A stretch of 64,000 nt of DNA. Source: Escherichia coli. GTDB lineage: Bacteria; Pseudomonadota; Gammaproteobacteria; Enterobacterales; Enterobacteriaceae. Below are positions 870 to 54,370 of this stretch, one piece after another (the first letter of the stretch is position 1; each line of letters opens with the position of its first letter). Under the pieces are notes generated by a model. It did no database searches. It worked only from the letters and a program-made list of their open reading frames with translations, and had not been told where the DNA came from. The DNA is taken from NCBI RefSeq assembly GCF_029227855.1, contig NZ_CP074356.1; one strand, 5' to 3'. The translations under genes and the position numbers were made by a program.

Positions 870-1541
870 ATGAGCACAGAAAAAGAAAAGATGATTGCTG
901 GTGAGTTGTATCGCTCGGCAGATGAGACGTTATCTCGCGATCGCCTGCGCGCTCGTCAGCTTATTCACCGATACAATCATTCCCTGGCGGAAGAGCACAC
1001 ATTACGCCAGCAAATTCTCGCTGATTTATTCGGTCAGGTGACAGAGGCTTATATTGAGTCAACGTTTCGCTGTGATTATGGCTATAACATTTTTCTCGGC
1101 AATAATTTTTTCGCCAACTTCGATTGCGTGATGCTTGATGTCTGCCCTATTCGCATCGGTGATAACTGTATGTTGGCACCAGGCGTTCATATCTACACGG
1201 CAACACATCCCATCGACCCTGTAGCACGTAATAGCGGTGCTGAACTGGGGAAACCCGTCACCATCGGTAATAACGTCTGGATTGGCGGACGCGCGGTCAT
1301 TAACCCTGGTGTGACCATTGGTGATAACGTCGTGGTAGCCTCAGGTGCAGTTGTCACAAAAGATGTCCCGGACAACGTTGTCGTGGGCGGTAATCCAGCC
1401 AGAATCATTAAAAAAATTGTAACCAGCTTTTCGCAACTGTTATGCAAAATTGTGGTAAATCTGTTACTTTCCCTCTACTATTCCCACGTTAAAATAGGGT
1501 GTTCCCTGGAAAGTTGCAGATACCACGAAGGCAAACGATGA
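870..1541 (+). CDS. maa: Maltose O-acetyltransferase (hexapeptide-repeat family); C-terminus altered and extended by an apparent +1 frameshift
   Basis: First 182 residues match Maa as I recall it (183 aa, ending ...ARIIKKL); here an A7 run at 1410..1416 gives ...IIKKIVTSF... and the ORF runs to 1541. Confidence 0.85.
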
Positions 1542-2008
1542 CCGAAATACAACGCCTGCTGACCGAAACAATTGAGTCTCTAAATACCCGCGAAAAACGC
1601 GACAACAAACCCCGCTTTAGTATCAGTTTTATCCGTAAACATCCGGGGCTGTTTATCGGTATGTATGTTGCTTTTTTTGCCACCCTGGCGGTGATGTTGC
1701 AGTCCGAAACGCTTTCAGGCTCTGTCTGGCTACTGGTTGTATTATTTATCCTGCTTAATGGTTTCTTCTTTTTCGATGTCTACCCACGCTACCGCTATGA
1801 AGATATCGACGTGCTCGATTTCCGCGTTTGCTATAACGGCGAATGGTACAACACGCGCTTTGTACCTGCCGCGCTGGTTGAAGCCATCTTGAACTCTCCA
1901 CGTGTCGCGGATGTTCATAAAGAACAACTGCAAAAAATGATCGTCCGTAAAGGTGAACTGTCTTTTTACGATATTTTTACCCTCGCTCGCGCCGAATCAA
2001 CATCTTAA
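1538..2008 (+). CDS. ylaC: Inner membrane protein YlaC
   Basis: 156-aa product [22 protein letters not shown]... with hydrophobic segments; start chosen at internal ATG 1538 of track ORF 1499..2008. Confidence 0.85.
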
Positions 2009-8370: not shown

Positions 8371-11917
<3,547 letters not shown>

Positions 11918-49618: not shown

Positions 49619-49905
49619 TTACCCTGAACTGACGATACAACAAAGGCGCAACGCTTTTGAGATAAAGGATCGATGCTTTCGCTGCTTTTACCCTCTACCA
49701 TTAGGCTAATTGCGACGAGAAAGGGACGACCTATGAATACTAACGTTTTTCGACTGCTCCTGCTGGGAAGCCTGTTCAGCCTTAGCGCCTGTGTGCAGCA
49801 AAGCGAAGTGCGACAGATGAAACACAGCGTCAGCACGCTGAACCAGGAGATGACGCAACTCATTGACATCCTCCACGCCCTGAAGGACGTGGATCCCTGC
49901 TACGT

Positions 49906-51114
49906 TCAGGCTGTCGCCTGAATCATTTCGGTGGGTTCCTGCTTCAACGGGCGGCCTGACTGCACCATCTCTCCACAGGCAAGAACGGCGTGCCCCGCCG
50001 CTAAAATGTTACGAGCGCCATTTACATCGGCGTTCGCTGTATATCCACATACCTGGCATCTGAATTGACTTTGTGACAGGCGATTTTCTTTCGCTGTATG
50101 ACCACAGCACGCGCAACGCTGACTTGTGTACGCTGGCGGAACAGCAAGCACCTGACCGCCACTCCAGAGCTGCTTGTACTCAAGCTGGCGGCGCATTTCA
50201 TACCAGCCCTGATCCAGTATCGAACGGTTTAAACCTGATTTTGCCCGGACATTGCGCCCCGGCTGGCTGACCGTACCCGCTGCTGACTTTGACATGTTAC
50301 TGACCTTCAAATCCTCAATGACTATCATTGCGTGGTTTTTGCTGACGGTCGTTGTGACTTTATGAAGGTAGTCCCTGCGGATATTTGCGATACAGGAATG
50401 CAGTCGCTGTATTTTGCGTTTCTGCTTCTGCCAGTTGTTGCTGAATTTGACCTTGCGGCTTAACTGTCGCTGAAGTCTCGCCAGCTTCTTCTGGTTTTTC
50501 TGAAAACTGTTTACAGGCTCAAAGACTGTGCCATCTGACAGCGTGGCGAGTTTAGCCACGCCAGCATCCAGCCCGACCATTGATGCTGAAGGGTGAACCG
50601 GAGTTGATACTTCACTTTCTGTCTGAATACTGATGTACCACTTACCGCAGGACTGGCAGACCGTGACATTTTTCACAACACCCGTGACCTGACGGCTATT
50701 CCGGTAGCGCATCCAGCCAAGTTTCGGCAGAAAAATACGGCTGTTTTCCTGATCGAGCTTAACGCCCTGCGGGTAGCGGAATGCATCATTCTGTCCCCGC
50801 TTTTTGAATCGGGGAAAAGCAGCCCGCTTCCGGAAGAAGTTTTTGTAAACCCGCTCAAGGTCTTTCAGTGACTGTTGCAATGGCTGTGAGGGCGAATCTT
50901 TAAGCCATTGCGTTTCAGTGGCGTTTTTCCACTCAACCAGCCAGGAAGCCATTTTCCCGTAAGGGATGTATTTATTACCGGCCTCATGATTCTCATTCTG
51001 AAGCGCCAGAGCACGATTGAAAACGAAACGACATGCGCCTGCGAAGCGCCTCATTTCACGCTCCTGTTGACCACCGGGTCTTAACTGGAATTTAAATGCC
51101 TGTAGTCGTTTCAC
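49906..51114 (-). CDS. tnpB: TnpB (OrfB) of IS605-family element; RuvC-like RNA-guided nuclease family
   Basis: 402-aa intact ORF, N-terminus [17 protein letters not shown]...; C-terminal zinc-finger CxxC...CxxC (CACCGH...CQVCGY); resembles K-12 IS609 InsQ as I recall it. Confidence 0.88.
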
Positions 51115-51121
51115 AGGCCAA

Positions 51122-51600
51122 ATGATACTTTGGTCTGTGAAAAAAGAAACCGATATCCGGCGTGGAAGGCATTGTGTTTTCCTGATGCATGTTCACCTGG
51201 TCTTTGTCCCAAATACCGACGCCAGATTTTTGACCATGACGCGACAGAAAAACCACGCACTTACTTTTCAGATGTATGTGCTGATTTTGAAGCTGAACTG
51301 GTTGAAATGGATGGCGAACCAGATCACGTCCATTTGTTAATTAACTATCCTCCCAAACTGGCGATATCCAGTCTGGTAAACAGCCTCAAAGGCGTATCGG
51401 GTAGGTGACTGCGACGAGATCGACCAGATATTGCAGTCAGGTATTACTACAAAGGCGTTTTGTGGAGTCCTGGCTATTTTGCCAGTAGCTGCGGAGGTGC
51501 GCCAATATCCGTCATCCGCCAATACATTGAACAACAGCAAACACCTGGTCAGGTGGAAAACCGCGCCTTATATCCCCGCCCTGAAGGACGGGGTTTTACG
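51122..51600 (+). pseudogene. tnpA: IS200/IS605-family Y1 transposase TnpA, frameshifted
   Basis: HVHLVFVP in one frame continues as KYRRQIF...DHVHLLINYPPK...LKG in the -1 frame (A-run at about 51211); C-terminal ...WSPGYFASSCGGAPISVIRQYIEQQ lies in a third frame. Confidence 0.75.
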
Positions 51601-52316
51601 GCGCACCGGATAAAGAAACAGTCAAAATCACTCAGCAAAACAGGCTGAATGCAAAATCCAGCAGTGGGGTTTACCTTCTGCCTGGAGCGAAAACACCAGC
51701 AAGACTGGAAAGCCAGATCGGTACTTTACGTATGTCGCTGGTGAATATTACGCCTGATACAGATGGCACCACCCTGACGCTACGTATTCAGGGCGAGTCG
51801 AATGATCCCTTGCCCGCATTCAGCGGAACTGTTGAATATGGGCAAATTCAGGGAACAATAGACAACTTTCAGGAAATCAATGTGCAGAATCAATTGATTA
51901 ACGCCCCTGCCAGCGTCCTCGCCCCCAGCGATGTTGATATTCCGTTACAGTTAAAGGGTATTTCTGTGGATCAGTTAGGCTTTGTACGTATCCACGACAT
52001 TCAACCTGTTATGCAGTAAACGTTTCGCGGGGCGTTTTGTGCGTCCCGCAACATCTTTCCCCGTCATTTTGTTACTCTGCTTACATCACCCAGATTGATA
52101 GTAAAAGTTTGCAACAAGGGTGAAAGTCAGTACAATCCCCGCCCGAATGTGTGTAAACGTGAACGCAATCGATTACGTAAATGATAGAACTGTGAAACGA
52201 AACATATTTTTGTGAGCAATGATTTTTATAATAGGCTCCTCTGTATACGAAATATTTAGAAACGCAATTTGCGCCTTTTTCACTCCCGCAAGGGATTTTC
52301 AAACAGTGGCATACAT

Positions 52317-53649: not shown

Positions 53650-54370
53650 ATCTCCATACATCAATAAATATCCTCCGGCATAGCCGGAGGTTTTTCAAAT
53701 GCGCCTATAAGGCTCTCTTACCAGCCGCGCCCTAACAGGCGCACACGATCTGACATTTGCATCCAACTTCGTTACTTACGGCCCGTAAACGGGCTGCCCG
53801 GATAGGGAATCGATAACTGCTCTCCCATTTTATCCTCTTCAAGCTGGTGCTTTATGTAATCCTGTATCTTCGCCGTGTTCTTACCCACTGTATCGACGTA
53901 GTACCCTCTGCACCAGAACTCCCTGTTCCTGTATTTGAATTTCAAATCACCAAACTGCTCGTAAAGCATCAGACTGCTTTTCCCTTTCAGATATCCCATA
54001 AACCCGGATACGCTCATTTTAGGCGGGATCTCCACAAGCATATGGATATGATCTGCACAGCATTCAGCTTCCAGAATCCGTACGCTTTTCCACTCACACA
54101 GCTTTCTCAAAATACTGCCTATTGCTCTACGCTTCTCTCTGTAGAACACCTGTCTTCGGTATTTTGGCGCAAAAACTATGTGATATTTACAGTTCCATCG
54201 GGTGTGCGCTAAGCTCTTTTCGTTCCCCATTGGGACCCCCTTTTGATTTCTTGTTTGACACTTGCAGTTGCCAGACCGCAAGGTGTTTTAACAAATCAAA
54301 AGGGGTTTTAATAACTGGCTCAAAGCTGAAAGCTTTCCGGAACCCCCTGCCTAGCTGGGGGTTTTCTGTG
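53650..54370. mobile_element. IS200-type insertion sequence (boundaries approximate)
   Basis: About 0.7 kb between yajD and secF carrying an IS200-type tnpA; upstream of tnpA are the hairpins typical of the IS200 left end (RBS-sequestering palindrome 54235..54300, GC-hairpin 54334..54356). Confidence 0.6.
53772..54230 (-). CDS. tnpA: IS200 transposase TnpA (HUH Y1 family)
   Basis: 152-aa product MGNEKSLAHTRWNCKYHIVFAPKYRRQVFYREKRRAIGSILRKL...DHIHMLVEIPPKMSVSGFMGYLKGKSS..., classic IS200 TnpA; start at internal ATG. Confidence 0.9.
   Translation of the reverse strand: MGNEKSLAHTRWNCKYHIVFAPKYRRQVFYREKRRAIGSILRKLCEWKSVRILEAECCADHIHMLVEIPPKMSVSGFMGYLKGKSSLMLYEQFGDLKFKYRNREFWCRGYYVDTVGKNTAKIQDYIKHQLEEDKMGEQLSIPYPGSPFTGRK

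What the first reader, a model, noticed from the sequence alone, without database searches (positions are those of the whole stretch)
1401..1541. Apparent +1 frameshift in a poly-A run changes and extends the Maa C-terminus
The sequence reads AGA ATC ATT AAA AAA ATT GTA ACC (A7 run at 1410..1416), giving ...[10 protein letters not shown]... and an ORF that continues for 40 extra codons to 1541, overlapping the ylaC start at 1538. With one A fewer the frame reads ...RIIKKL-stop, which is the Maa C-terminus as I recall it (183 aa). Only the last residue of the canonical protein is replaced, so the hexapeptide-repeat catalytic domain is intact, but the tail is new. This is either a homopolymer sequencing error or a genuine slippage variant.
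Basis: partly seen in the sequence, partly recalled or inferred. Interest (0 to 1): 0.4.

Follow-up and report, generated by a model that had tools for sequence, protein, structure and literature searches.

The report
One-base slip extends E. coli Maa
One extra A in a run of A's at the very end of the E. coli maltose acetyltransferase gene (maa) swaps the last amino acid and adds a 40-residue tail; this is an ordinary, recurrent homopolymer slip, real or a sequencing error, and not a new biological system.

Summary
Window 1410-1416 is A7, where E. coli K-12 and the nearest relative have A6. The maa ORF (870..1541) therefore encodes 223 aa instead of 183: L183I plus 40 residues read from the maa-ylaC spacer. 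Its TGA stop overlaps the ylaC ATG as ATGA.

The nearest complete genome, JNEC-KY178, differs from the whole 64-kb window at only five positions. One of them is this extra A.

No complete RefSeq E. coli genome with identical flanks carries A7. JGI metagenome contigs gave 0 A7 matches against 69 A6 matches.

The event is nonetheless recurrent. The exact 223-aa product occurs on two other public contigs. The equivalent +A products on five other maa haplotypes are all in public databases as 223-aa "maltose O-acetyltransferase". Some sit on clean draft contigs that look like inherited sublineages. Others sit in assemblies riddled with indels. The -A (206-aa) alleles exist too.

The tail frame shows no coding constraint, so programmed frameshifting is rejected. 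The tract is too short, and placed too late in the gene, for phase variation.

Without reads I cannot say whether this copy is a real mutation (about 55%) or a consensus error (about 42%). The expected effect is small: the catalytic domain is intact, the tail is hydrophobic, and translation may become coupled to ylaC. Low interest.

The parts
870..1541 (+). Extended maa ORF, 223 codons plus a TGA stop. Residues 1-182 are canonical Maa (S64 allele), followed by I183 and 40 new residues.
   Evidence: ORF list. (PDB 1OCX/6AG8, E = 1e-122, aligned over residues 1-184). (Pfam Mac 7-57, Hexapep 130-164).
1410..1416 (+). A7 homopolymer covering Lys181, Lys182 and the first base of codon 183. Relatives have A6. 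This is the site of the one-base insertion.
   Evidence: the only indel against JNEC-KY178 in the first 44 kb. (K-12 has A6).
1416..1538 (+). New C-terminal tail [41 protein letters not shown], translated from what is normally the maa-ylaC intergenic spacer. It has a hydrophobic core ([15 protein letters not shown]).
   Evidence: Kyte-Doolittle 19-residue maximum 1.68; GRAVY +0.39 against -0.05 for the core protein. (no Pfam family). (no coding-type constraint in this frame).
1420..1422 (+). The canonical maa stop codon TAA, now out of frame.
1539..1541 (+). New maa stop TGA, overlapping the ylaC start ATG (1538-1540) as ATGA.
   Evidence: ylaC coordinates come from the PGAP annotation of JNEC-KY178.
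1527..1531 (+). GAAGG, the likely ylaC Shine-Dalgarno sequence, 6 nt upstream of the ATG. In this allele it lies inside the extended maa ORF.
   Evidence: Read directly from the sequence. Its function is inferred.
1538..2008 (+). ylaC (156 aa, YlaC family inner-membrane protein), unchanged.
   Evidence: PF10777.

Best explanation
A single A was added by strand slippage to the A6 tract that encodes the last two lysines of maa. I think the most likely origin is DNA replication in the lineage of the sequenced strain, which would make this a real, nearly neutral allele.

Shown: the frame shifts at codon 183. Leu-stop becomes Ile, and translation runs through the 116-nt maa-ylaC spacer for 40 more codons. 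It stops at a TGA that overlaps the ylaC ATG.

Shown: the same slip has happened repeatedly in other E. coli lineages, and in some it appears to be inherited.

Inferred: the acetyltransferase core (Mac cap plus left-handed beta-helix) stays folded and active, because only the last residue changes. A crystal structure also exists for a Maa chain 8 residues longer at the C-terminus. The hydrophobic tail may lower solubility or stability. Ribosomes finishing the extended maa could reinitiate at ylaC, giving translational coupling.
For: The A7 is present and is the only window-private indel in 64 kb against the nearest complete genome. The other 70 homopolymers of 6 nt or more agree, except for one run where the window carries the common, intact state.

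The exact 223-aa product also occurs on an ENA MEGAHIT contig (L005). That contig's only indel against its nearest complete genome across 19 kb is this A.

Hypothetical +A products built on five other maa haplotypes are all on record as 223-aa maltose O-acetyltransferase. P0016 is on 36 contigs, P0017 on 11, P0018 on 9, and P0019 and P0020 on 3 each; member P0021 is on 31.

P0021 was read on 24 contigs and is indexed in 52 blocks, with at least 4 GenBank protein accessions. Its contig L078 matches four complete genomes at 100.0% with a one-base length difference (12672 against 12671 nt).

The sister genome JNEC-KY178 is an Illumina-plus-Nanopore hybrid assembly (bioRxiv 10.64898/2025.12.25.695649). 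It carries its own private +A frameshift in another gene. Real homopolymer indels therefore do accumulate in this lineage on this timescale.

Only residue 183 of the canonical protein changes. PDB 6AG8 is a 191-residue Maa chain, 8 residues longer at the C-terminus.
Against: The insertion is private. A 76-nt probe found no complete RefSeq E. coli genome with identical flanks and A7, on either major flank haplotype. JGI metagenome contigs gave 0 A7 against 69 A6.

The same A7 also appears in assemblies that are plainly full of homopolymer errors. L006 has about 10 further +1 homopolymer insertions in 11.5 kb. NCTC contig L080 has 6 further indels.

The window spans IS200/IS605 copies, which suggests a long-read assembly. 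Homopolymer length is the main residual error of such assemblies (inference).

Two homopolymer indels against three SNPs between the window and its sister is a high ratio for real mutations. No reads are available.
Confidence: 0.55

Rival explanations
1. Consensus or base-calling error. The strain really has A6 and a normal 183-aa Maa, and the assembler or polisher over-called the homopolymer by one base.
For: Homopolymer miscalls produce exactly this A7 in noisy public assemblies (L006; L080). The change is private relative to a relative that is 99.992% identical. It is absent from complete genomes with identical flanks and from JGI metagenome contigs. The window crosses IS elements, so long reads were probably used (inference).
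Against: No other window-private indel occurs in 64 kb, which holds 71 homopolymers of 6 nt or more. At the other variable run the window has the consensus state. Clean contigs elsewhere carry A7 (L005; L078), so the allele class is biologically real.
Confidence: 0.42
2. The tract is a functional switch. Either it is a phase-variable contingency locus, or it is a programmed translational or transcriptional slippage site that deliberately produces a long Maa isoform and couples it to ylaC.
For: The slip recurs in both directions in public data, with +A giving 223 aa and -A giving 206 aa. The +A frame is open to the ylaC start in 67 of 72 haplotypes. The new stop forms an ATGA overlap.
Against: The tract is only 6-7 nt long. 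It sits at the last codon, so it switches nothing off. A7 is very rare. Variable sites in the spacer fall 6/4/7 on codon positions 1/2/3 of the tail frame, so there is no coding-type constraint. The tail has no Pfam family and the region has no Rfam element.
Confidence: 0.03

Closest known systems
E. coli maltose O-acetyltransferase Maa (PDB 1OCX, 6AG8; K-12 b0459, 183 aa)
   Same: Residues 1-182 are identical to the crystallised protein apart from P64S, a common allele (WP_001522034.1). The Mac and hexapeptide domains are the same, and so is the hha-maa-ylaC-pdeB synteny.
   Different: L183I plus a 40-residue tail translated from the intergenic spacer. The stop codon has moved 120 nt downstream onto the ylaC start.
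223-aa 'maltose O-acetyltransferase' entries already in public databases (e.g. ELF41403.1 from E. coli KTE171, STM59529.1, UniProt A0A377E8H0, EEC9586318.1)
   Same: The same A6-to-A7 slip at the same tract, the same 223-aa length and the same tail frame.
   Different: They sit on other maa and spacer haplotypes (P64; tail variants IVIGF......VVDLLLP...). The window's exact sequence is recorded on only two other contigs.
Homopolymer-length errors of long-read or flow-based sequencing
   Same: A +1 change in an A/T run of 6 nt or more that creates an apparent frameshift. L006 and L080 show the same site hit among many others.
   Different: This window shows no other such error in 64 kb.
Phase-variable NeuO polysialate O-acetyltransferase of E. 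coli K1 (same hexapeptide acyltransferase superfamily; PMC3046976, found)
   Same: A hexapeptide-repeat O-acetyltransferase. The abstract of PMC3046976 describes its capsule O-acetylation as phase-variable.
   Different: From my own knowledge, NeuO varies through a 5' heptanucleotide repeat array that switches expression on and off at high frequency. Here a 6/7-nt tract at the last codon changes only the tail, and does so at very low frequency.

Membership tests
Maa / maltose O-acetyltransferase (LbH acetyltransferase) | N-terminal Mac capping motif and hexapeptide-repeat left-handed beta-helix | tested here: met
   Pfam PF12464 at 7-57 (E = 1.6e-17); PF00132 and PF14602 at 129-164.
Maa / maltose O-acetyltransferase (LbH acetyltransferase) | Near-identity to experimentally characterised E. 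coli Maa | tested here: met
   1OCX E = 1.5e-121 and 6AG8 E = 9.6e-123. The only differences within residues 1-183 are P64S and L183I.
Maa / maltose O-acetyltransferase (LbH acetyltransferase) | Conserved genomic position hha-maa-ylaC-pdeB | tested here: met
Maa / maltose O-acetyltransferase (LbH acetyltransferase) | Canonical 183-aa length ending ...IIKKL-stop | tested here: not met
   223 aa ending ...IIKKI plus 40 aa. This is a C-terminal variant, not a different family.
Maa / maltose O-acetyltransferase (LbH acetyltransferase) | Acetyl-CoA-dependent acetylation of maltose or glucose by the 223-aa form | not testable with these tools
   Needs an enzyme assay on the extended protein.
Simple-sequence contingency locus (phase variation) | Long tract (typically 8 nt or more) with both lengths common within populations | tested here: not met
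   The tract is 6/7 nt. No complete genome with identical flanks has A7. Metagenome contigs gave 0 A7 against 69 A6.
Simple-sequence contingency locus (phase variation) | Tract placed so that a length change switches the gene on or off | tested here: not met
   The tract covers codons 181-183 of 183, so the whole catalytic domain lies upstream of it.
Programmed frameshift / transcriptional slippage gene | The alternative-frame extension is under purifying (coding) selection | tested here: not met
   The 17 variable spacer sites fall 6/4/7 on codon positions 1/2/3 of the tail frame. The tail variants are all non-synonymous.
Programmed frameshift / transcriptional slippage gene | Long isoform produced from the normal A6 allele | not testable with these tools
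   Needs proteomics or a reporter assay.
Homopolymer sequencing/assembly artefact | Private to one assembly, with close relatives showing the shorter run | tested here: met
   JNEC-KY178 (99.992% identical over 64 kb) has A6.
Homopolymer sequencing/assembly artefact | Accompanied by other homopolymer errors in the same assembly | tested here: not met
   No other window-private indel in 64 kb. Contrast L006 and L080.
Homopolymer sequencing/assembly artefact | Reads disagree with the consensus | not testable with these tools
   No reads are available, and the source assembly was not identified.

The most novel reading that the evidence does not exclude
The terminal A6 tract of maa could be a mild mutational hot spot whose +A product is tolerated or even favoured in some clones. 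That product is a 223-aa Maa with a hydrophobic tail, translationally coupled to the membrane protein YlaC through an ATGA overlap. This would explain why sublineages with dozens of assemblies keep it. It would be a small, previously undescribed natural isoform polymorphism with a regulatory side-effect on ylaC.
Probability: 0.05. Interest if true: 0.3.

Novelty: already known. Interest (0 to 1): 0.1.

Why it matters
It matters mainly for annotation. Automatic pipelines will call this gene either a frameshifted pseudogene or a 223-aa Maa. The catalytic part is in fact intact, and only the tail differs. The finding also gives a worked example of one homopolymer site that produces the same apparent frameshift both as a real inherited allele and as a sequencing artefact, so a single assembly cannot tell the two apart. 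If real, the biological consequence is probably small. Maa is a non-essential detoxifying acetyltransferase, and YlaC has no known function.

Tried and rejected
1. Short 36-nt A7-specific probes against the complete genomes returned no match. A positive control, 36 nt around another A7 run known to be in 323 genomes, also returned nothing. BLAST's low-complexity filter therefore voids all three calls, and I do not use them.

2. The genome-contig scans returned 0 for both the A7 and the A6 pattern. They are uninformative.

3. I tried to find the window's source, or its clone mates, through lineage markers. The window-private MdlB L81I is not on record. The lineage-specific MscK (WP_275877358.1) is on only 6 contigs, and the one shown stops before maa.

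4. I first read as "0 of 5396 genomes have A7". That is too broad, because an A7 on a K-12-like flank would fall in the same identity band as A6. A second probe on the K-12 flank was needed. Even together, the two probes exclude A7 only where the flanks are identical.

5. A functional element in the spacer: no Rfam family at E = 1 or better, and no intrinsic terminator. There is a moderately stable RNA fold (z = -2.4), which I did not pursue.

6. Programmed frameshift or a conserved hidden ORF: rejected by the codon-position tally.

7. A literature search for maa frameshifts found nothing relevant.

8. I did not run structure prediction. A tail translated from non-coding DNA would give a low-confidence model and would not change the verdict.

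Full report
**What is there**

The window is the E. coli tomB-hha-maa-ylaC-pdeB ... malZ region. At 1401-1424 the sequence reads AGA ATC ATT AAA AAA ATT GTA ACC, with seven A's at 1410-1416. The ORF that starts at the maa ATG (870) runs to 1541 and encodes 223 aa.

The E. coli Maa crystal-structure sequences 1OCX and 6AG8 align with residues 1-182 and show Leu where the window has Ile183; 1OCX ends at that residue. MG1655 reads AGA ATA ATT AAA AAA TTG TAA, which is A6 and ...RIIKKL-stop.

**How it compares with relatives**

The nearest complete RefSeq genome is JNEC-KY178 (NZ_AP045174.1). It is colinear with the entire window and differs at five positions only:
- the extra A at 1410;
- SNPs at 9912 (mdlB L81I in the window), 18583 (ppiD, synonymous) and 62370 (malZ);
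- one A fewer in the window at the run 44976-44982.

At that second run the window has the common state. A 523-aa pentapeptide-repeat gene is intact there, and 323 complete genomes are identical over 81 nt. JNEC-KY178 has A8 at that run, and its copy is annotated as frameshifted.

So the window has exactly one private indel among its 71 homopolymers of 6 nt or more. JNEC-KY genomes are Illumina-plus-Nanopore hybrid assemblies made with Hybracter (bioRxiv 10.64898/2025.12.25.695649). The sister's private +A is therefore probably real.

**How common is A7?**

Two 76-nt probes carrying A7 were run against the complete genomes, one on the window-type flank and one on the K-12-type flank. Neither found a genome at 99% identity or better among 5396 and 4280 matching genomes. 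This excludes A7 only where the flanks are identical.

JGI metagenome contigs gave 0 exact matches for the A7 pattern and 69 for the A6 pattern.

The slip is not unique, however. The exact 223-aa product is on record on two contigs:
- L005 is an ENA MEGAHIT contig. Its only indel against its nearest complete genome over 19 kb is this A.
- L006 is a Logan contig with about ten further +1 homopolymer insertions. It is an obvious error profile.

I then built the hypothetical +A products on five other maa and spacer haplotypes. All five are in the collection as 223-aa "maltose O-acetyltransferase", within a 19-member cluster. P0016 is on 36 contigs and includes ELF41403.1 and STM59529.1. Member P0021 is on 31 contigs. 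Two of the three -A (206-aa) products I built exist too.

P0021 was read on 24 contigs and is indexed in 52 blocks. Its contig L078 matches four complete genomes at 100.0% with a one-base length difference. Many independent draft assemblies carrying the same allele on a clean background is best explained by inheritance in a sublineage.

P0016 includes clean contigs (L079) and also an NCTC contig with six further indels (L080).

Both classes therefore exist at this site: genuine slippage alleles and homopolymer artefacts.

**Is the tail functional?**

- The 41-residue tail matches no Pfam family.
- It has a hydrophobic core, with a Kyte-Doolittle 19-residue maximum of 1.68.
- The +A frame is open to the ylaC start in 67 of 72 surveyed haplotypes.
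- The 17 variable spacer sites fall 6/4/7 on codon positions 1/2/3 of that frame, and every tail variant is non-synonymous. The frame is not under coding constraint, and its openness is inherited chance.
- The spacer holds no Rfam family and no predicted intrinsic terminator.
- A genomic SELEX study lists an RpoD site between maa and ylaC and assigns it to ylaC (PMC3946193).

Programmed frameshifting and phase variation are therefore rejected. The tract is short, it sits at the last codon, and A7 is rare.

**Mechanism and consequences**

Shown:
- a +1 expansion of a terminal A6 tract;
- L183I plus 40 residues;
- a stop that overlaps the ylaC start as ATGA;
- intact Mac and hexapeptide domains.

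Inferred:
- The enzyme probably still folds and works. A crystal structure exists for a Maa chain 8 residues longer at the C-terminus (6AG8, 191 residues).
- The hydrophobic tail may reduce solubility or half-life.
- Ribosomes terminating at ATGA, just downstream of the ylaC GAAGG (1527-1531), could reinitiate and modestly change ylaC translation.

**Real or artefact here?**

The sequence alone cannot settle this.

For a real mutation:
- no other private indel in 64 kb;
- the consensus state at the other variable run;
- clean A7 contigs elsewhere, including one on the same haplotype;
- a hybrid-polished sister genome with its own private homopolymer indel;
- near-neutrality of the change.

For an artefact:
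- the change is private;
- the window spans IS200/IS605 copies, so long reads were probably used;
- the same A7 arises in noisy assemblies;
- two homopolymer indels against three SNPs between the sisters is a high ratio.

I put about 55% on a real allele and 42% on an artefact.

**Verdict**

This is an ordinary, already-catalogued kind of event of low interest. It is useful mainly as an annotation caveat.

Noticed in passing
window 43732..45303 (+); A-run 44976-44982: A 523-aa pentapeptide-repeat protein (Pfam PF00805). It is an accessory gene between yajO and pgpA, matched by an 81-nt probe in about 510 of 5426 complete E. coli genomes. It is intact here, but the nearest relative JNEC-KY178 has A8 instead of A7 and its copy is annotated as frameshifted. 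This mirrors the maa case.
   Followed up: partly
window ~49733..52019 and ~53772..54230: The yajI/DUF3251 lipoprotein gene is split by an IS200/IS605-family insertion, with TnpB at about 49906..51114 on the minus strand and a degraded tnpA. A separate IS200C tnpA lies between yajD and secF. Coordinates are carried over from the JNEC-KY178 annotation.
   Followed up: no
window 60711..62168 (-): A 485-aa hypothetical protein (WP_000155927.1 in the relative) lies between acpH and malZ. As I recall the K-12 gene order, no gene sits there. It has no Pfam family above cutoff, only a weak Cas_CT1975 hit (E = 0.003).
   Followed up: no
window 9912 (mdlB, minus strand): A window-private SNP gives MdlB L81I. 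The resulting exact protein is not on record among about 15 billion public proteins, so the source genome is probably not in that collection.
   Followed up: partly
L006 (Logan ERR13763636) and L080 (NCTC UGEX01000003.1): These are public contigs of this region with many homopolymer indels, which split pdeB, tesB, acrA, acrB and amtB. They show how such assemblies seed databases with artefactual 223-aa Maa proteins.
   Followed up: partly
window 1400..1560 (+): The maa-ylaC spacer RNA folds somewhat better than shuffled controls (-35.3 kcal/mol, z = -2.36). Its 3' half is almost invariant among 75 E. coli copies, which would fit a ylaC promoter or leader.
   Followed up: no
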